A stretch of 64,000 bases of DNA from an uncultured bacterium (GTDB lineage: Bacteria; Planctomycetota; Phycisphaerae; SM23-33; FEN-1343): NCBI GenBank assembly GCA_965372365.1, contig CBDVCA010000001.1:5810-69809 (forward strand). Direction: 5' to 3'. Every line of letters starts with the position of its first letter. Within the stretch, counting starts at the first letter, position 1. Below, one piece after another: positions 1,366 to 9,096 of this stretch. Both the position numbers and the translations under genes were made by a program. The notes beneath the pieces are model-generated. The model saw nothing but the letters and a program-made list of their open reading frames with translations, ran no database searches and was not told the DNA's origin.

Positions 1366-3999
1366 ATGACGGTATCGCCCGCGGCCAACACCTACGAGCA
1401 ACTCGCCGAAGCCTTCGACGCAGCAGGCGTGGTTCGGCCCATGCGGATCGACCGCTATGAGGCCGGAGCCGAGCTGACCTACGCCGTCACCGGCGTCGCG
1501 CCGGCTGCCGAGGCGACCGTGCGACTGGTCATCGACAAGTTCGTCGGCGGCGGATTCGCCGGGCAGGTCTACCGGGTTATCGTCAAAGCCGTCGAAGGCG
1601 GACCCATCGCCGGGCTCAACGCCGGCGACAAGTACGCCATGAAGATCCTGATCCCCCCGTCGGGAGGGTCGATCCGCTTCCGAAACCTCATCTACTGGAT
1701 CGGGTTCCAGGCGCCGTTCTCGCTACAGGTCAACCCCGACGCCGCTCGCTCGGGCGCCTTGTGGCAGAAGTTCATCCGGCGGGCCGCGTCGATCGAATTC
1801 GGCTCCGAGCGAGCCGTGGTCGATATCATGGCCACGTTCGTCGATGAGCGGATGGGCAGTTGCGGGGAGCTCAGCGAATGGCTGGAAGGCCGCAATTGGA
1901 TCTTCGAAGTCGACGACAATCTCGCCGAACGCAAGAAATGGCGCGTCGGCGAGCCGATCGAGCAAGAGGGCCTCGGCGCCCCGGAGTATCGGGCGAAGAA
2001 GGATTTCATGGCCCGGATCGTCAAACTGTTCCACCAGGTGGGCGCCCCGGAGTTGGGTCGTCAGTACGAATGGTGGACCTGCAAGAGCCAGCCCAACTGC
2101 CTCAAGCGGCTCGACAGCGAAGGCGACCCGGCCGCGGGACTGACGGCCGTCGATTTTCGGGCTGGGCTGGCGCTGCTGTGCTGTCTACCGATGAGCCCCG
2201 GCGATATCAAACTGATCGGCGACGGCCTGTTCCAACGCGGCAGCCTCGTGCAGTTCGATCGCGGCAACGTCGACAAACTCCAAACCTACGTCGACGCCCA
2301 CGCCGACACCTTCGCCGACATGGGCGACGCACTCGACGAACTCAAACGCACCGAAGGCGCCTATCGCAACTCGATGATCGACGTCACGCACAACCACGTT
2401 CGCCTGCTGACCAGCGGGAAGTTGTGGGGTTCGATCTTTGACGCCGCGGTGACCAGTTGGCGCGTTCGGTCGATCGCCGACGACGCCTGCTGCGAGAAAC
2501 TCGGCCGCTCGCGAATCCGAACCGCCCTGTTCGCGATGACGGGCCTGTGCATCGCCATGGCCTCGCTGGCGAAGGTGGCCGGCGTGCTGGGGCTGATCGG
2601 CGCCGGCATCGCCGCAATGTTCAGCCGGCAAGGCGAACCGGCCATGACCTGGGCGACCCTCGCGGCCGGCGGACTCGTCGGCGGAATCGTACTGGGGGGC
2701 CTCGCTCGACTGATCCGAGCCGTATGGGGCCGGGCCGACCTGCGAAGCCATTACGGGCGGATGCTCACGTCGCCGGCGTACTTTCAGCGCGCCGCCAAGG
2801 CGCGAATCGCCGAGAACCTCATCACGTGGACCCGCCACGGACGCGTATCGCAAGAACGAGCCCTGCGCGTGAAGACGTCGGTCCTGTTCTACGCGGCCAA
2901 CCTTCCGCTGGCGGTGCTGCCGGCGGGGTTGCATCGGTTCTTCTCCGATGCGAAATTCGCCGCGTCCAAGCTGCATTACATCGTCACGCGACCGTTCAAA
3001 CTGTACTTCAACGCCGATGTCCGCGAGCAATGGATGCTGGAAATGCTCGATGACGGGCTCGCACATGGGATGGTCAGCGCCGACGAGGCCGAGACGATCC
3101 GTGGGCAGTTGAGCGAGCCGTTCATTCAGAAATACCTCAAGAGCCTCGCCGTCCACGTCTGCACGCTGCCGGTAACGCAGATCGTCTCGGTGGCCGTCGC
3201 GATCTTCTACTGGGACGGCGCCCTGTCGCCGAAACAGAACCTCGTGCGGGCCGTCGCCATCCTCGCGGCCTTCCAGGTGACGCCGATCTCCCCGGGCTCC
3301 ATCGTCCGCGGGCTGTACGTGGTGGCGATGGTCATCAAGGACCGCAATTACAAAGACTACAAAATCGCCGTGTGGATGGGCTTCTGGAAGTACATCGGAT
3401 ACCTGTCGTTCCCGATCCAGATGGCGTATCACTACCCGGCGATCGCCCGGTTCATGGCGGGCCGCTTCTCCACCGAGGCGGTGCACATTCTGCCGGTCTT
3501 CGGCGAGCACGGCGCCCTGGCCGAGCACGCGGTGTTCGACCTGTTCTACAACCGCCCCCTCACGATTCGCCGGCAGATGACCCTTCGCGCCGAGCAGCGA
3601 AAATCGCTCAAACCGCGACGGTGGCACATGCCGCTGATCGCCCTGGCGGCCTGGATCGTTGTGGCGCAGATGCCCGCCTGGATCGCCACACTCGGCGGCC
3701 GGCCGCTCGCCCAGCCGATCGTCGGAGGGTGGATGATGGCCCTGGCGGCGGTGCTCGGGGGGCTATGGACCTGCCGGCTCGCCGCTGGCGCATCCACCGG
3801 ATCGCGGATCACCATGGGCGCACTGTGCGGGCTGCTGATCGCCGCGTTCACCATCACAGCGAGCGTACTGTGGCCGATTGCCGGTGTGGCGAGTCTCTCC
3901 GAATCGATCGCCATCGCCCTCGTGCCGGCCTTCCTCTCAACACTGCTCGGGCTGCTGGCGGCGCTATCGACGGAGCTGTCGGCGACCGAAACGAACTGA
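1366..3999 (+). CDS. Large membrane protein: N-terminal protein-kinase-like domain fused to a polytopic (10 or more TM) C-terminal region; function unknown
   Basis: ORF track 1354(GTG)..3999; ATG at 1366 is preceded by GGTGGAG 6 nt upstream. Gly-rich loop plus lysine motif VIDKFVGGGFAGQVYRV...KYAMKIL, a KSQPNCL catalytic-loop-like segment without the canonical HRD Asp, and VDFRAG (DFG-like). After about aa 400 there are many long hydrophobic helices. Confidence 0.6.
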   Translation: MTVSPAANTYEQLAEAFDAAGVVRPMRIDRYEAGAELTYAVTGVAPAAEATVRLVIDKFVGGGFAGQVYRVIVKAVEGGPIAGLNAGDKYAMKILIPPSGGSIRFRNLIYWIGFQAPFSLQVNPDAARSGALWQKFIRRAASIEFGSERAVVDIMATFVDERMGSCGELSEWLEGRNWIFEVDDNLAERKKWRVGEPIEQEGLGAPEYRAKKDFMARIVKLFHQVGAPELGRQYEWWTCKSQPNCLKRLDSEGDPAAGLTAVDFRAGLALLCCLPMSPGDIKLIGDGLFQRGSLVQFDRGNVDKLQTYVDAHADTFADMGDALDELKRTEGAYRNSMIDVTHNHVRLLTSGKLWGSIFDAAVTSWRVRSIADDACCEKLGRSRIRTALFAMTGLCIAMASLAKVAGVLGLIGAGIAAMFSRQGEPAMTWATLAAGGLVGGIVLGGLARLIRAVWGRADLRSHYGRMLTSPAYFQRAAKARIAENLITWTRHGRVSQERALRVKTSVLFYAANLPLAVLPAGLHRFFSDAKFAASKLHYIVTRPFKLYFNADVREQWMLEMLDDGLAHGMVSADEAETIRGQLSEPFIQKYLKSLAVHVCTLPVTQIVSVAVAIFYWDGALSPKQNLVRAVAILAAFQVTPISPGSIVRGLYVVAMVIKDRNYKDYKIAVWMGFWKYIGYLSFPIQMAYHYPAIARFMAGRFSTEAVHILPVFGEHGALAEHAVFDLFYNRPLTIRRQMTLRAEQRKSLKPRRWHMPLIALAAWIVVAQMPAWIATLGGRPLAQPIVGGWMMALAAVLGGLWTCRLAAGASTGSRITMGALCGLLIAAFTITASVLWPIAGVASLSESIAIALVPAFLSTLLGLLAALSTELSATETN

Positions 4000-4103
4000 T
4001 GTCCTCCCCACGCACAGAAGCCATACGCTCGCGCGGACTATGCCCATGTGAGGTTCATCCGCGATTCGTGGGGAGTCCTTCCGATGAGCGCCCGCCGTTA
4101 CTA

Positions 4104-4264
4104 GTACTCTGTCACACCAAAACCTGCTAGGTCCGCGCCGTGCCGGATGGTCAGATGCAAGGAAGAAAGACGATGGCATATTCGAGGATATGCCGAGTTT
4201 TTCTGACGAAGCAGATGACCGTTCGCCACAAGCGGAGTTAGTAGGTTTTGGTGTGACAGAGTAC
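4104..4264 (+). mobile_element. MITE-a copy 1: 161-bp non-autonomous element with about 40-bp imperfect terminal inverted repeats (gtactctgtcacaccaaaacct...), flanked by TA (4102-4103 and 4265-4266)
   Basis: Seen in sequence: termini gtactctgtcacaccaaaacct / aggttttggtgtgacagagtac. Central core gatgcaaggaagaaagacgatggcatattcgaggatatgccgagtttttctgacgaagcagatgac is shared with the copy at 12562..12724. No ORF. Confidence 0.75.
4175..4202 (+). terminator. Terminator-like hairpin plus U-run inside MITE-a copy 1 (ggcatat-tcgagg-atatgcc gag ttttt)
   Basis: 7-bp stem and T5 run lying 176 nt downstream of the + strand kinase-like gene. The same motif is in copy 2 in the orientation of local transcription. 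The stem is AT-rich and weak. Confidence 0.3.
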
Positions 4265-4266
4265 TA

Positions 4267-4400
4267 GCCCCCCGCAGTGCGGGGGGTCGAGACGGGAGCG
4301 AACGGACAGAATGCGGATCGAGCTTTCGGTTTCCGCCGATCAGCGTTACATCCACAATAGGAATACCATCCGTCCCCATACCCCCTGCACTGCAGGGGGC
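4267..4400. mobile_element. Element Y: 134-bp TA-flanked element with 14-bp TIRs (gccccccgcagtgc / gcactgcagggggc), each terminus itself a GC hairpin; abuts MITE-a copy 1
   Basis: TA at 4265-4266 and 4401-4402. The outer flanks gccgttac (4094-4101) and gtaacggc (4403-4410) are reverse complements, implying a palindromic target gccgttacTAgtaacggc. Confidence 0.5.
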
Positions 4401-4511
4401 TAGTAACGGCAAGCTTCCGGCGGAGAGAACTCCCCGCTACTCCGTCATGGATCAGAAGAAACGCCGGCGACCCCCCCCAGCGGGGCGATCGCCGGCGGTG
4501 CGTGCGGTGTA

Positions 4512-6074
4512 TTAGAAGTCGGCCAGGCCGGACTCACCCGCTGCAACAGTCGATTTGGCCGTCGAAGCCGCAGGCGTCTGAGCGATCATGTGCCAAGGGT
4601 CGTCGCTGCCGGAGGAGGCCGGGACCGCTCCCGCCGCCGAATCGCTTCCGTCGACCAGTTGGGCCAGTAGGCGGACCTGCCCGGTCATCGCGACGGCCTG
4701 GGCGTCCAGTTCTTCAGCAGCCGAGGCCGACTCTTCGGCGTTAGCGGCATTGGCTTGGGTGCTCTGATCGAGTTGGGTTACGATCTCGTTGATCTGCTCG
4801 ATGCCTTGGGCCTGTTCGACCGTCGCATCGGAGATCTCGCCGATCAGGGTGTCCACTTTGCGAACACCGTCGGCGACGTCGGCCAACGACTCTCCCACCG
4901 ACCGGGTGATTTCCACGCCGCGATCGGCGTTGCGAGCGGACTTCTCGATCATCGAAGCGGTGTTCCTGGCCGCCTCGGCGCTTCGCTGAGCGAGGTTGCG
5001 AACTTCCTCGGCGACCACGGCGAACCCCTTGCCGGCCTCACCGGCCCGAGCGGCCTCGACCGCGGCGTTCAACGCCAATAGATTGGTCTGGAAGGCGATC
5101 TCATCGATCGTCTTGATAATCCGGCCGGTTTCGTCGGAGGACTTCTTGATGTCATCAATCGCGGTGGTCATCTTCGTCATCGCCTCGGCGCTCTGTTCGG
5201 CGGTGGAACTGACTTGGGCGGTAACTTCCTGGGCGAGCTTGGCGTTGTCTGCGTTCTGCTTGCATGACGCGGACATCTGCTCGGCGCCGGCCGACGCCTG
5301 CTCGAACGAGGCCGCCTGCTCGGAAGTCTGCTGGGCCAACGACTGGCTCGCTGTCGCCACTTGGCTGCTGGCCTCGCCGACCTGGGCGGAGCCCTCATTC
5401 AGGTTGGCAATGATCTTCCGCAGGGTCTTGGAGACGCCTCGGGCGATAATCGTCGCGATCACAACGCCTGTGACAATGGCGATGATCGATGCGACGGTCA
5501 CGATCAGCCGCGTCGACGACGCTTGGGCGAACACGTCGGCGTTGACCTGGTCGGCTGTCTCCTCTAGATGCGAGTTGGCGCCGTCCAGAAGCTTCTGGAG
5601 CTTGGCGAGCGTCGGCAGCGTCCGGGTCTGGAACGCATTCCTCGCCAGTTCCATGCCGTCAGCGCCTTGGGCGGCGTGCCCTTGAATTTCGATCGCCGAC
5701 TCATGCAGCGTCGCGTGATAACCTTCGACTTCCGACAGGATCGGCGCCAGAGCGGGCGCCAACGCCTCCGAATCCTTGCGATCGGGGCCGTAGAGCCACT
5801 TGCCCAGCGCGCACTTGTGATCGTCGGTCTGGACGTCCACCTGCGTAACCTCGTCGTCGGTGAACAGGGCGCTGACCTTGGCCGTCCAGTTGAGATGATC
5901 CACCTTCCTGCACAGCAATTCGGCATTCAACTTGCCTACGTCAATCGACGTAGTCACCCCACCTCGCATGCCATTGACGCCATAGACGGCGGCGCCGGCC
6001 AACACGACCAGCAGGGCGAGCACCGTAGCGAACCCCAGTCCGATCTTCTTCCCGACAGTTAGCTGCTTGAACAT
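4512..6074 (-). CDS. Methyl-accepting chemotaxis protein with an inter-TM CZB-like (zinc-binding) sensor motif, HAMP and MCP signalling domain
   Basis: Start at internal Met [10 protein letters not shown] with GAGAGG 6 nt upstream. TM1 [23 protein letters not shown]-like H-x2-W (DHLNW), 24 aa, CALGKW, 26 aa, HATLH. TM2 [25 protein letters not shown] core [38 protein letters not shown]. Confidence 0.85.
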
Positions 6075-6400
6075 ACTGGACCTCTCGAAATGCGAGACGC
6101 TGGGCGCGCCTCTGGGCAATTATGAATTCGCCGCATGGTTGTTCCGGACAGTCGCGGCGGCTGGCACAGTCGCATCAGAGAACCGGCGACAAGCCGACAG
6201 TAATGCCTGCATTCCGGGCAGGCGCAGGCTTGTCTTTGGCGAAACTACCGGGACGAGGTGAAACTCCTGGCTTCCAGATCACATATCATTCCAAGCTCCC
6301 CGCCGAGCGGGATGAGCCTATCTAGATAGCGACAGAATTGTCGTTCGACTTGAGCTGTACTCCGGCTCTGGAGCCATTCACGATTGAGATGCGGGAACCG

Positions 6401-6557: not shown

Positions 6558-7043
6558 CTAAACGACAAATCGCACGATCATCTGAGCGGCGATGTTGGCG
6601 TAGACGCCCGCGGCTAGATCGTCGCACAGTACACCCCATCCGGCGGGGAGTTTCTCCAACTGCCGCGCCGGCGTTGGTTTGAGGATATCAAATACGCGGA
6701 ACGCCACGAACGCCACACCCGCGGCTGTCAGGGCGCCGCCAACGCCGGCGGCCGGAAGAGCGATCAACGCCACCGCCTGTCCGGCCCATTCGTCGATCGT
6801 GACCTGGCCGGGATCTTTCTTGCCGAAGTGACGCTCAGCGAACGGCCCCAGGGCCACGCAGATGACGCTGCTGACCACCACCACCAAGACCATCGCGGCG
6901 TCAACCGCATACGAACGCTCGCCGTCGATCCGGCCGATCAGCAGATACAACGCGACCACCACCGCCGAGCCCCACGTGCCCGGTGCGATCGGCAGATACC
7001 CGGTCCCCAGGCCGGTCACCGCCAGCGTCTTGAGCCTATCCAC
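6558..7043 (-). CDS. pgpA: Phosphatidylglycerophosphatase A
   Basis: GTGYLPIAPGTWGS, TIDEWAGQ, FRVFDILKP...LPAGWGVLCDDLAAG motifs. Confidence 0.85.
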   Translation of the reverse strand: MDRLKTLAVTGLGTGYLPIAPGTWGSAVVVALYLLIGRIDGERSYAVDAAMVLVVVVSSVICVALGPFAERHFGKKDPGQVTIDEWAGQAVALIALPAAGVGGALTAAGVAFVAFRVFDILKPTPARQLEKLPAGWGVLCDDLAAGVYANIAAQMIVRFVV

Positions 7044-7695
7044 GGGTCGCCTCCACCAGCAACTTGCGAGCCCGACCCACGTAGGTGAGCCCGCTGAGAA
7101 TCGTGACGATGACGGTTCCCCACACCAGGGCGATCTTCAGAACCACCGCCCACGCCGCCTCCGGCAGCAGGGCGACCTGGAAGAGAACAACGCAGATCGC
7201 CGTACTCTGAACGGCCATCTTGATTTTACCCATCGACGTCGCCGGGAACGCCAGTCCCTGGCTCTCGCTAAAGCCGCGAATGCCCGAAACGATGAACTCC
7301 CGGGCGATCAGCACCACCACCATCCACGCCTGCACGGCGCTGGCCATACCGCCGTGGAGCCAGGGGGACATCGTCCGCTCCAGTTCGCTGGTGGCCTCGC
7401 CGCCGGGGAAGACGAAGTTGCTCCCCGAAAGCAGCGCGTAGGCGCCGCAGACGATGACCTTGTCGACGAACGGGTCGGCGATCCGCCCGAACGCGCTGGT
7501 TACGTTCCACTTGCGGGCCAGGTAGCCGTCGAGGATATCGGTAAGAGCCGCGATGATGAAGATCACGAACGCCGCCATCAGCAGCCCGACGTCGGGCTCT
7601 GGAACGATGTCGGCGACGGCCAGCAGCGAGAAGAAGACAATCGCCAGGACCAATCGGCCCAGCGTGATCTGGTTGGGCAATTTCGGATACACCAT
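7036..7695 (-). CDS. pgsA: CDP-diacylglycerol--glycerol-3-phosphate 3-phosphatidyltransferase
   Basis: CDP-alcohol phosphatidyltransferase motif DILDGYLARKWNVTSAFGRIADPFVDK. I chose Met MVYPKLPNQITLGR (7695) because GGTGGA lies 6 nt upstream; the track ORF extends to 7722. Overlaps pgpA by 8 nt. Confidence 0.85.
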   Translation of the reverse strand: MVYPKLPNQITLGRLVLAIVFFSLLAVADIVPEPDVGLLMAAFVIFIIAALTDILDGYLARKWNVTSAFGRIADPFVDKVIVCGAYALLSGSNFVFPGGEATSELERTMSPWLHGGMASAVQAWMVVVLIAREFIVSGIRGFSESQGLAFPATSMGKIKMAVQSTAICVVLFQVALLPEAAWAVVLKIALVWGTVIVTILSGLTYVGRARKLLVEATRG

Positions 7696-7725
7696 CGCTG
7701 TCCACCCATCAAGGGCCGCCAAGTC

Positions 7726-9096
7726 TTATCGGCGGCGGCGTTTGCGTCGCGAGGCCGCCTTCGAAGGCGTTACGATCAGGTCGTACTCGCTGTACTCGGC
7801 CACGGTCGCTCGCACAAAGGCTCCCGCCGGAGCCGGGTCGGTCAGGTAGCACACACTGTCGACGTCGGGCGCCTGTCCGGCGTGCCTGCCGACACAATAC
7901 CCGTTGGAATCGACGCCGTCGACCATTACCTCGATCGACTTTCCGATACGGGCGGCGTTGGCGGCCAGCGCGATCTCCTGCTGGGCGAGCATCAACTCCT
8001 CCACCCGCTTGGCGGCCACCTCCGGATCGACCGCCCCGTCCATCTTCGCGGCCGCCGTGCCGGGCTCGGGGGAGAAGGCGAACACCCCCATCGCGTCGAA
8101 GCGGGCCGCCTCCACAAACGCCAGCAACCGCCGATACTCGGCGTCGGTCTCGCCGGGGAACCCCACAATGAACGTCGTCCGAATCGTCATATCCTCAACG
8201 CGGCTGCGGAGCCGCTCGATGAGCCGCTCGGTTTCGGCCTCGCTCGTCCGGCGCCGCATTCGCTTCAGCACGCCGTCGGCCACATGCTGCAGCGGCACGT
8301 CGATGTACTTGACGACCTTCTCGCACTCGGCGATCGCGTCGATGATCTCGTCGGTCACCAGCGACGGATACGCGTACATCAGGCGGATCCACCGCACGCG
8401 ATCCAGCCCGTTGAGTTCGGCCAGCAGCCCGGCCAGGCCGGCGTCGTAGCCGATATCCCCGCCATAGCTGGTCGTATCCTGACCGATCAGATTCAATTCG
8501 ACCGCCCCGTCGGCGATCAACTCGGCCGCTTCGGCCATGATGCGGTCGATCGGCTTGGAGCGGAACGGGCCGCGAATAGCGGGGATGGTGCAGAAGCTGC
8601 ACCCTTGGCCGCAGCCCTCGCTGATACGCAGATACGCCGTATGCGCCGGCGTCAATCGCAGCCGCGACGTGTCGTCGCCGACCGCCGGACTGTCGGCGCT
8701 GCGCCGATACGCATCGACCGCCGTAACCTCCGTCGTCGCCGTCACCGCCTCGACCAGATCGGCGCGATTGTTCACCCCCACCACCGCGTCGACACCCGGC
8801 AAGGCCCGGCGTAACTCGTCGCCGTCCCGCTGGGCCATGCACCCGACGACGACCACCCGACGGACCGATCCGGCTTCCTTCATCGCCAGCGCTTCGGCGA
8901 TAACTTCGGTCGATTCGTCCCGCGCCGAGGCGAGAAACCCGCAGGTGTTCACGATAATCACGTTCGCTTGGTCCGCGTCGGCGCCCACGATGCAGCCGGC
9001 CTCGGCCAATAGGCCGAGCATCTTCTCGCTGTCGACGAGGTTCTTCGGACAGCCCAGCGAAATCAGGTTGACGATTGTCGGTTCTTCATTACTCAT
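7726..9096 (-). CDS. rimO: Ribosomal protein S12 methylthiotransferase (radical SAM MTTase plus TRAM domain)
   Basis: N-terminal ISLGCPKNLVDSE, radical-SAM CxxxCxxC (EGCGQGCSFCTIP), C-terminal TRAM-like region. Confidence 0.8.
   Translation of the reverse strand: MSNEEPTIVNLISLGCPKNLVDSEKMLGLLAEAGCIVGADADQANVIIVNTCGFLASARDESTEVIAEALAMKEAGSVRRVVVVGCMAQRDGDELRRALPGVDAVVGVNNRADLVEAVTATTEVTAVDAYRRSADSPAVGDDTSRLRLTPAHTAYLRISEGCGQGCSFCTIPAIRGPFRSKPIDRIMAEAAELIADGAVELNLIGQDTTSYGGDIGYDAGLAGLLAELNGLDRVRWIRLMYAYPSLVTDEIIDAIAECEKVVKYIDVPLQHVADGVLKRMRRRTSEAETERLIERLRSRVEDMTIRTTFIVGFPGETDAEYRRLLAFVEAARFDAMGVFAFSPEPGTAAAKMDGAVDPEVAAKRVEELMLAQQEIALAANAARIGKSIEVMVDGVDSNGYCVGRHAGQAPDVDSVCYLTDPAPAGAFVRATVAEYSEYDLIVTPSKAASRRKRRRR

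What the first reader, a model, noticed from the sequence alone, without database searches (positions are those of the whole stretch)
1366..3999. 881-aa protein fusing an atypical protein-kinase-like domain to a large polytopic membrane domain
The N-terminal roughly 330 aa carry recognisable kinase landmarks:
- a Gly-rich loop GGGFAGQVY;
- a beta3-like lysine in AMKIL;
- a K..PN.L segment;
- DFR in place of DFG.

The HRD catalytic Asp is not evident, so it may be a pseudokinase or a small-molecule kinase. The remaining roughly 550 aa form at least 10 hydrophobic helices with no obvious transporter motif. The gene stands alone, diverging from the AddB-like gene and ending at the MITE cluster. 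I do not recognise the combination as a described family.
Basis: inference. Interest (0 to 1): 0.6.

Follow-up and report, generated by a model that had tools for sequence, protein, structure and literature searches.

The report
Membrane-anchored atypical kinase-like protein beside pgpA
This gene encodes an unnamed, strongly conserved Planctomycetota protein that joins an unusual kinase-like domain (ATP-binding residues kept, usual catalytic Asp missing) to a membrane module with no solved structural relative, and it usually sits next to a phosphatidylglycerol-synthesis gene, so it probably acts on membrane lipids.

Summary
The ORF is real: ATG 1366 to stop 3999, + strand, 877 aa.

- **Active site.** The Gly-rich loop, beta3 Lys, Mg-binding Asn and DFG-like Asp are conserved. 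The HRD-Asp position is a variable Cys/Leu/Met/Trp.
- **No family match.** Pfam, NCBIfam, PADLOC and PDB sequence searches find nothing.
- **Distribution.** At least 504 species genomes, mostly Phycisphaerae/Sedimentisphaerales, encode the family.
- **Not stand-alone.** pgpA lies within 2.5 kb in 45 of 65 well-flanked loci, usually directly upstream with a 10-35 nt gap. In the window, an MCP gene and MITE-like repeats interrupt the ancestral arrangement of this gene converging on pgpA-pgsA-rimO.

Best reading: a new PKL family, a membrane-bound ATP-dependent enzyme of phospholipid metabolism. The substrate is unknown.

The parts
1366..3999 (+). Complete CDS of the 877-aa protein (stop codon 3997-3999). 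A GGAG ribosome-binding site lies at 1356-1359.
   Evidence: the ORF, homologue N-termini aligning at the ATG at 1366, and the upstream sequence.
1453..2400 (+). Divergent protein-kinase-like domain (about residues 30-345).
1546..1572 (+). Gly-rich loop GGGFAGQVY (residues 61-69), between beta1 and beta2.
   Evidence: eight of nine residues invariant in 119 sequences (F64 at >=90%).: kept as G[GS]GFAGQVY in the 600-799 aa forms.: it aligns with the G-loop of a Hanks-type kinase, though not significantly.
1642..1644 (+). K93 in AMKIL, the beta3 (VAIK-type) lysine.
2083..2097 (+). Catalytic-loop equivalent K240-S-Q-P-N244. N244 is the presumed Mg-binding Asn. The HRD-Asp position (C239, bases 2080-2082) is not acidic and not conserved.
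   Evidence: Placement follows from the order of secondary-structure elements (inference).
2152..2205 (+). D263-F-R265 (DFG equivalent), followed by a conserved hydrophobic, Pro-rich segment AGLALL..LPMSPGD (266-280) where an activation loop would lie.
   Evidence: conservation; hydropathy 255-277; coil, pLDDT 57-63.
2512..2730 (+). Optional TM hairpin (residues 383-455). It is poorly conserved and absent from the ~831-aa relatives.
2731..3117 (+). Conserved charged all-helical domain (residues 456-584), presumably cytoplasmic. Invariant residues include Y472, E483, W488, R524, D528, R553 and W556.
3118..3615 (+). Conserved membrane core (residues 585-750): TM helix 585-614, a kinked helix pair 622-659 around FQVTPISPGSxxRG, then interfacial helices carrying FFKYxGYLxFPxQM and PVFGExGALxEH. 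This is the part best kept across all length classes.
3616..3996 (+). C-terminal bundle of four TM helices (residues 751-877). It is weakly conserved and absent from the 600-799 aa relatives.
6558..7043 (-). pgpA (phosphatidylglycerophosphatase A), the conserved genomic partner of the family.
   Evidence: PF04608, E 5e-37; linkage.
7036..7722 (-). pgsA-like CDP-alcohol phosphatidyltransferase. It overlaps pgpA by 8 nt, so the two form an operon.
   Evidence: PF01066, E 1.4e-30; the same pgpA-pgsA-rimO block lies next to homologues.
4101..6119 (.). Material lying between this gene and pgpA in the window: two MITE-like inverted-repeat elements (4101-4267, 4262-4405) and an MCP gene with a CZB domain (4512-6119, - strand).
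   Evidence: in the closest relative with context (69% identity), pgpA starts 57 nt after the gene's stop.

Best explanation

**Proposed mechanism.** A cytoplasmic, divergent PKL domain binds ATP and Mg through a conserved Gly-rich loop, beta3 Lys, Asn244 and Asp263. It has no catalytic Asp at the HRD position. The domain is held rigidly on the inner face of the cytoplasmic membrane by a conserved helical domain and a kinked TM hairpin of unknown fold. I propose it uses ATP on a membrane-embedded, non-protein substrate of the phosphatidylglycerol branch of phospholipid metabolism. This could be phosphoryl transfer to a lipid head group. It could also be UbiB/COQ8-style ATP hydrolysis coupled to handling a lipid. 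Either way it would work together with the PGP phosphatase PgpA, with which it forms an operon in most genomes.

**Shown:**
- the fold;
- conservation of the nucleotide-binding residues;
- absence of the canonical base;
- membrane anchoring;
- absence of any known relative for the membrane core;
- the pgpA linkage.

**Inferred:**
- cytoplasmic orientation;
- actual ATP binding;
- a lipid substrate;
- the chemistry.
For: **Real, selected gene**
- More than 2,900 homologues at E<=1e-3; the top 120 are 50-97% identical over the full length.
- 561 clusters at 50% identity in a library of 1.84 billion representatives.
- Relatives in at least 504 species genomes.

**Fold**
- AF2 model with pLDDT 87.8 and pTM 0.84.

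**Nucleotide-site residues**
- G61, G63, V68, A91, N244 and D263 are invariant, and K93, S241, Q242 and R265 are at least 90% conserved, even when relatives of 25-30% identity are included.

**Lipid context**
- pgpA lies within 2.5 kb in 45 of 65 well-flanked loci. In 43 loci it is co-directional and immediately upstream, typically with a 10-35 nt gap. In 14 loci it is convergent as pgpA-pgsA-rimO. Every other neighbour differs between loci.
- In one lineage, uppS and cdsA lie 3-4 kb downstream.

**Other**
- The segment after DFR, where kinases bind substrate, is hydrophobic and conserved.
- pTM 0.84 for the whole chain suggests a fixed arrangement of the kinase-like and membrane parts.
Against: - No biochemical data exist.
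- The canonical catalytic Asp is absent, and no conserved Glu sits in the helices where an alphaC Glu would be. The domain could therefore be non-catalytic.
- 'Mini' relatives of 440-530 aa have lost the Gly-rich loop, and in most the Asn equivalent, yet keep the membrane core. At least part of the family's role therefore does not need ATP.
- The roughly 730-770 aa intermediate relatives show no pgpA linkage.
- Linkage within one class may partly be inherited synteny, and the convergent arrangement is not an operon.
pLDDT is only 57-75 around the catalytic loop and DFR segment.
Confidence: 0.45

Rival explanations
1. It is a non-catalytic pseudokinase. The PKL domain would be a nucleotide-sensing or purely structural scaffold on the membrane that regulates or organises PgpA/PgsA or other envelope enzymes. 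This would resemble the pseudokinase domain of mycobacterial MviN (Rv3910).
For: - The HRD-Asp position is variable and non-acidic, and there is no conserved alphaC-type Glu.
- Mini relatives lose the ATP-site motifs but keep the membrane core.
Against: - The Gly-rich loop, K93, N244 and D263 stay invariant over relatives of only 25-30% identity. That is more than a scaffold usually needs.
- Other PKL enzymes such as SelO and COQ8 are active with non-canonical sites (general knowledge; for COQ8 see the preprint read).
Confidence: 0.27
2. It is a transporter or flippase whose polytopic membrane domain moves a lipid or solute, with the kinase-like domain as its regulatory or energising module. 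This is.
For: - Conserved polar residues lie inside the predicted membrane helices (H597, T600, Q637, S642, S645, R648), around a Pro/Gly-rich kink.
- The gene lies next to lipid-synthesis genes.
Against: - Six of the roughly 8-9 hydrophobic helices are dispensable in relatives. The conserved core has only about one TM helix plus one kinked pair.
- No transporter family appears in Pfam or NCBIfam.
- H597, Q637 and E714 are not conserved in the 600-799 aa forms.
Confidence: 0.1
3. It is a Hanks-type Ser/Thr protein kinase with a membrane sensor domain that phosphorylates proteins.
Against: - No Pfam Pkinase hit even at E<=10.
- No HRD Asp and no APE motif.
- hhalign against a Hanks-type kinase aligns only the G-loop to VAIK stretch, at 0.8% probability.
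- Only 8-18% identity, with 165-190 residues aligned for most hits.
Confidence: 0.05
4. The pgpA neighbourhood is only inherited synteny, and the protein acts in something unrelated to lipids.
For: - The family is largely confined to one class.
- The intermediate-length relatives lack the linkage.
- The convergent arrangement is not co-transcribed.
Against: - The linkage survives in two different arrangements while every other neighbour differs.
- Gaps of 10-35 nt, and overlaps (-3 and 0 nt), indicate co-transcription in 40 or so species.
Confidence: 0.13

Closest known systems
UbiB/ABC1 family (COQ8/ADCK3, bacterial UbiB; Pfam PF03109)
   Same: - Both have a PKL fold used for something other than protein phosphorylation.
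- Both are membrane-anchored by TM helices.
- Both are tied to a membrane-lipid pathway.
- Both have a loop with a GQV[HY] core (here GFAGQVY), followed by a beta3 Lys in a K-x-x-x-P context. This motif resemblance is from my own knowledge of ABC1 motifs.
- COQ8 is thought to use ATPase activity to access membrane-embedded lipid intermediates (preprint 10.1101/2022.03.22.485346).
   Different: - No PF03109 hit even at E<=10.
[quoted passage not shown] Residues 1-60 contain no KxGQ.
- UbiB keeps a catalytic-loop Asp (my knowledge). Here that position is Cys or variable.
- The membrane module is far larger and conserved in its own right.
Hanks-type Ser/Thr protein kinases (Pfam PF00069), e.g. 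B. subtilis YabT and M. tuberculosis PknB
   Same: - They share the same order of Gly-rich loop, beta3 Lys, Asn and DF[GR].
   Different: - No HRD Asp and no APE motif.
- No sequence-level match.
- A hydrophobic segment replaces the activation loop.
MviN/MurJ-pseudokinase fusion (M. tuberculosis Rv3910)
   Same: - A membrane protein of envelope biogenesis fused to a kinase-homology domain that lacks catalytic residues.
   Different: - The domain order is reversed.
- The ATP-binding residues here are strictly conserved.
SEAE1, a putative PKL lipid kinase next to a PAP2 lipid phosphatase in Segetibacter (bioRxiv 10.64898/2026.09.18.752743)
   Same: Both are newly recognised bacterial PKL families with only structural similarity to kinases, placed next to a lipid phosphatase gene and proposed to act on phospholipids.
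   Different: - SEAE1 keeps a catalytic Asp (D216) and is described without a conserved membrane module.
- Its phosphatase neighbour is PAP2, not PgpA, and is lineage-specific.
- It occurs in different phyla (Bacteroidota, Verrucomicrobiota).
- Direct homology to the present family was not tested.

Membership tests
Protein kinase-like (PKL) superfamily | Bilobal kinase fold: a beta-rich N-lobe and a helical C-lobe. | tested here: met
   [not shown]
Protein kinase-like (PKL) superfamily | Nucleotide-binding residues: Gly-rich loop, beta3 Lys, Mg-binding Asn, DFG Asp. | tested here: met
   GGGFAGQVY, K93, N244 and D263 are invariant or at least 90% conserved. Their structural equivalence is inferred from the order of secondary-structure elements, not from superposed coordinates.
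Protein kinase-like (PKL) superfamily | Catalytic base Asp in the catalytic loop (HRD-type). | tested here: not met
   The position five residues before N244 is C239, which varies C/L/M/W across the family.
Hanks-type protein kinases (Pfam PF00069 Pkinase) | A match to the family HMM, plus HRD and APE motifs. | tested here: not met
   No Pfam hit at E<=10 for the whole protein or for residues 1-385. hhalign probability is 0.8%. No HRD or APE in the alignment.
UbiB/ABC1 (Pfam PF03109) | A match to the family HMM. | tested here: not met
   No hit at E<=10.
UbiB/ABC1 (Pfam PF03109) | An N-terminal KxGQ domain, invariant in the family. | tested here: not met
   The feature is defined in the preprint read. 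Residues 1-60 of the protein and of the family consensus contain no KxGQ.
UbiB/ABC1 (Pfam PF03109) | ATPase activity stimulated by lipids or a membrane mimic. | not testable with these tools
   Needs biochemistry.
MurJ/MviN flippase-pseudokinase fusions | A MOP-superfamily 14-TM flippase domain. | tested here: not met
   [not shown]
Small-molecule or lipid PKL kinases (APH, choline kinase, Kdo/WaaP, RIO, PI3/4K) | A match to any of these family HMMs. | tested here: not met
   [not shown]
Known membrane enzyme or transporter folds (for the C-terminal core) | Structural similarity to a solved membrane protein. | tested here: not met
   [not shown]
Anti-phage defence systems (PADLOC) | A match to a defence-protein model. 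| tested here: not met
   No hit at E<=1.

The most novel reading that the evidence does not exclude
The family is a new kind of membrane-integral PKL enzyme. Its conserved membrane module, of a fold not yet seen in solved structures, would present a phosphatidylglycerol-pathway lipid to an ATP site that works without the canonical catalytic Asp. One possibility is phosphorylation of a phosphomonoester or hydroxyl of PG or PGP. Another is ATP-driven lipid extraction. With PgpA it would form a previously unknown kinase/phosphatase (or ATPase/phosphatase) cycle controlling anionic phospholipids in Phycisphaerae.
Probability: 0.25. Interest if true: 0.8.

Novelty: new variant of a known kind. Interest (0 to 1): 0.6.

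Why it matters
- **A gap in the PKL superfamily.** The superfamily keeps yielding enzymes with unexpected chemistry, such as AMPylation by SelO, glutamylation by SidJ and ATPase activity in COQ8. Here is a large family, in at least 504 species genomes, with strictly conserved ATP-site residues, no canonical base, and no entry in Pfam or NCBIfam.
- **An unrecognised membrane module.** The kinase-like domain is fused to a membrane module with no solved structural relative.
- **A testable link to lipid synthesis.** The operon link to pgpA gives a concrete hypothesis in phospholipid metabolism, for a phylum whose membrane biology is poorly understood.
- **A family worth defining.** Even if the lipid hypothesis fails, the family deserves a definition (PKL domain plus the 'PISPGS/FGExGALxEH' core) so that thousands of 'hypothetical proteins' can be annotated.

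Tried and rejected
**Searches that found nothing**
1. Sequence-family searches of the whole protein and of three sub-regions against Pfam, NCBIfam and PADLOC gave nothing beyond noise.
2. phmmer, and two profile hmmsearch runs against PDB sequences, gave nothing significant. The best hit (MurJ chimera, E 0.07) is an artefact: it starts within the chimera's non-MurJ fusion part, and 'YIQKYLKSLA' is, from my knowledge of BRIL constructs, the end of the b562 (BRIL) partner at its junction with MurJ.
3. hhalign of the family profile against one Hanks-type kinase aligned only the G-loop to VAIK stretch, at 0.8% probability.
4. Three of the four literature searches (kinase-like/PgpA/Planctomycetes; Phycisphaerae plus phosphatidylglycerophosphatase plus kinase; new PKL families) found no description of this family, only the analogous SEAE1 case. 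The fourth, on UbiB, supplied the COQ8 preprint used for the UbiB membership test.

**Hypotheses tested and rejected**
5. UbiB/ABC1 membership is rejected: no HMM hit, no KxGQ, and it is not the closest fold.
6. The transporter reading is weakened: most TM helices are dispensable and there is no transporter fold.
7. Pfam scans of ten shorter or longer relatives, looking for alternative partner domains of the membrane core, found none.
8. The two extra conserved downstream ORFs of Sedimentisphaerales-type loci (~254 aa and ~160 aa) were looked for in the window and are absent; they have no Pfam match.
9. A second copy or mini paralogue in the window was looked for and not found.

**Look-ups that failed**
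10. An exact look-up of the window protein in the contig index found it is not on record.
11. A cluster-member look-up, done for taxonomy, returned no taxon names.

**Limit on structural checks**
12. Model coordinates are not exposed by the tools. The geometry of the active site relative to the membrane core could not be examined.
Full report
**1. The observation**

The ORF is present on the + strand. The ORF listing reports 1354 (GTG) to 3999. Homologue N-termini align with the ATG at 1366 (MTVS.. against the consensus MAxxYSVE..). The sequence GGTGGAG just upstream supplies a GGAG six bases before that ATG.

- GGGFAGQVY at residues 61-69;
- AMKIL with K93;
- K240-S-Q-P-N244-C-L;
- D263-F-R265.

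In an alignment of 119 homologues, G61-G63, A65-Y69, K93, K240-N244 and D263-R265 are invariant (F64 is at >=90%). This is conservation, not chance.

The residue five positions before N244, where the HRD Asp would be, is C239. It varies C/W/L in the long forms and L/M/C in the 600-799 aa forms. The remark that the catalytic Asp 'is not evident' is correct.

**2. The fold**

AlphaFold2 with the 119-sequence alignment gives a confident full-length model: mean pLDDT 87.8, pTM 0.84. The N-terminal third has the kinase order of elements: beta1, Gly-loop, beta2, beta3 (K93), two helices, beta4-beta5, then a helical lobe with the SQPN and DFR loops.

- Alpha-kinases (8.8), RIO3 (8.5) and several pseudokinases also appear: Rv3910 (8.2), JAK2 JH2 (8.1) and ROP5B (8.0). 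For most hits 165-190 residues align at 8-18% identity.
- Foldseek finds only kinases too, but weakly (E from 3e-3).
- Sequence methods see nothing. There is no Pfam, NCBIfam or PADLOC hit for the whole protein or its parts, and nothing significant in PDB sequences with a single sequence or two profiles.
- hhalign against a Hanks-type kinase aligns only the G-loop to VAIK stretch, at 0.8% probability.

The N-domain is therefore a very divergent member of the PKL superfamily, recognisable only by structure.

**3. The membrane part is not what it first seems**

Hydropathy and the model give the following layout:
- a TM hairpin at 383-455;
- a charged all-helical domain at 456-584;
- one TM helix at 585-614;
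- a kinked helix pair at 622-659 around the invariant FQVTPISPGSxxRG;
- amphipathic helices at 660-750 carrying FFKYxGYLxFPxQM and PVFGExGALxEH;
- four TM helices at 751-872.

The first hairpin is simply absent from the many ~831-aa relatives. The last four helices are absent from the 600-799 aa relatives. What every length class keeps is residues about 456-750. Even 'mini' proteins of 440-530 aa keep it, although they have lost the Gly-rich loop and most of the ATP-site motifs.

Positive charges at 660-675 and 735-752, and the even-numbered optional TM insertions, fit a topology with the PKL domain, the helical domain and the interfacial helices all cytoplasmic. This topology is an inference.

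**4. Distribution**

- The word-indexed search returned over 2,900 homologues. The top 120 are 50-97% identical, full length, all 'hypothetical protein' and all without Pfam domains.
- An exhaustive profile search of 1.84 billion cluster representatives found only 561 clusters (224 at E<=1e-30), so the family is compact.
- In the species-representative genome set, at least 504 genomes encode a relative. The titles are overwhelmingly Planctomycetota, Phycisphaerae and Sedimentisphaerales MAGs, including complete MAG chromosomes.
- The window holds one copy.

**5. Genomic context**

In the window it is flanked as follows:
- upstream, a divergent AddB-like gene (ADDB_N, E 1e-24);
- downstream, MITE-like inverted repeats, then an MCP gene with a CZB domain (4512-6119, - strand), then pgpA (6558-7043, - strand), a pgsA-type CDP-alcohol phosphatidyltransferase (7036-7722, - strand) and a rimO-like gene (7726-9096, - strand).

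Looking up six homologues on long contigs showed pgpA next to the gene every time, in two arrangements:
- pgpA directly upstream on the same strand;
- convergent pgpA-pgsA-rimO directly downstream.

Across 86 independent loci, pgpA is within 2.5 kb in 57. Among the 65 loci with enough flank on both sides it is present in 45. In 43 loci it is co-directional and upstream, with gaps mostly of 10-35 nt, which is operon spacing. All other neighbours differ from locus to locus.

The closest relative with context (69% identity) has pgpA starting 57 nt after the stop codon. In the window, therefore, the MCP gene and the repeat elements (4101-4267 and 4262-4405) have been inserted into an ancestral arrangement of this gene converging on pgpA-pgsA-rimO.

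Two limits apply. The ~730-770 aa intermediate relatives do not show the linkage. Within one bacterial class, some of the signal may be inherited synteny.

**6. Mechanism**

Shown:
- a PKL fold;
- conserved nucleotide and Mg-binding residues down to 25-30% identity;
- no canonical base, and no conserved acidic residue in the helices where an alphaC Glu would lie;
- a conserved hydrophobic, Pro-rich segment (AGLALLPFLPMSPGD) in place of an activation loop;
- rigid coupling to a conserved membrane-interface module (pTM 0.84);
- operon linkage to the PGP phosphatase gene.

Inferred: the PKL domain binds ATP at the cytoplasmic membrane surface and acts on a membrane-embedded, non-protein substrate of the PG branch. 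It would either transfer phosphate or hydrolyse ATP to handle a lipid, as proposed for COQ8/UbiB. I put this at about 0.45.

The main rival, at about 0.27, is a non-catalytic pseudokinase that organises or regulates PG synthesis. The missing base and the ATP-site-less mini forms favour it. The strict invariance of the ATP-site residues disfavours it.

The other rivals are less likely, for the reasons in the structured fields:
- a transporter reading (about 0.10);
- a Hanks-type protein kinase reading (about 0.05);
- 'synteny only' (about 0.13).

**7. Comparison with known families**

The protein works most like UbiB/COQ8: a PKL fold, membrane anchoring, a lipid pathway, and a GQV[HY]-type loop. 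It fails the membership tests, however:
- no PF03109 hit;
- no KxGQ domain, which the COQ8 literature calls the unique and invariant feature of the family;
- COQ8/ADCK3 is not among the top 60 fold matches.

It is structurally nearest to Hanks-type kinases but lacks HRD and APE and any sequence match. It resembles the MviN-pseudokinase fusion in concept only. A 2026 preprint describes an analogous, apparently unrelated case, SEAE1, a PKL putative lipid kinase beside a PAP2 phosphatase. I found no description of the present family.

**8. Verdict**

This is an undescribed PKL family with an atypical active site, a membrane module of unknown fold and a conserved link to pgpA. That makes it a new variant of a known kind (a new PKL family and architecture). 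Function is still unproven. Interest 0.6.

Noticed in passing
window 4101-4405: Two adjoining, slightly overlapping MITE-like elements directly after the gene's stop codon. Inverted repeats of 36 nt (4101-4136 / 4232-4267, 92% complementary) and 26 nt (4262-4287 / 4380-4405) both end in CTAGTA. The 26-nt terminal sequence occurs only at these two arms in the 64-kb window.
   Followed up: partly
window 4512-6119 (- strand): A methyl-accepting chemotaxis protein with a zinc-binding CZB domain (PF00015 E 1.6e-43, PF13682 E 4e-12). It sits between the gene and pgpA, where the closest relative (L169) has only a 57-nt gap. It looks like an insertion into a conserved arrangement, possibly together with the repeat elements.
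   Followed up: partly
window 4462-4497: A GC-rich 16-nt inverted repeat with a 4-nt loop, just past the 3' end of the MCP gene. It is a likely terminator hairpin.
   Followed up: no
window 6558-9096 (- strand): rimO-like (radical SAM/TRAM), pgsA-like and pgpA genes are tightly packed. pgsA and pgpA overlap by 8 nt. The same three-gene block recurs next to homologues in L001, L005, L013, L169 and other loci.
   Followed up: yes
L003 10748-12078; also L006, L007, L008 and about 30 further loci: In Sedimentisphaerales-type loci, two more conserved same-strand ORFs follow the gene. One is ~254 aa and soluble (34 loci). The other is ~160 aa with an N-terminal TM helix (28 loci). Neither has a Pfam match and neither is in the window. 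They may be further components of a pgpA-gene-Y-Z operon.
   Followed up: partly
proteins P0163, P0171, P0177, P0184, P0185, P0221, P0262: 'Mini' relatives of 440-530 aa keep the membrane core motifs (PxSPGSxxRGLY, FWRYxGYxxFPLQM, GxxGxLLEHxVFDLFFNxPL). They have lost the Gly-rich loop, and in most the Asn equivalent (SQxN becomes e.g. SQRR). They appear to be degenerate, ATP-site-less versions of the family.
   Followed up: partly
L003 13539-15260: In one lineage, uppS (Prenyltransf) and cdsA (CTP_transf_1) lie 3-4 kb downstream of the gene on the same strand. These are further lipid-synthesis genes in the neighbourhood.
   Followed up: no
[not shown]
   Followed up: no
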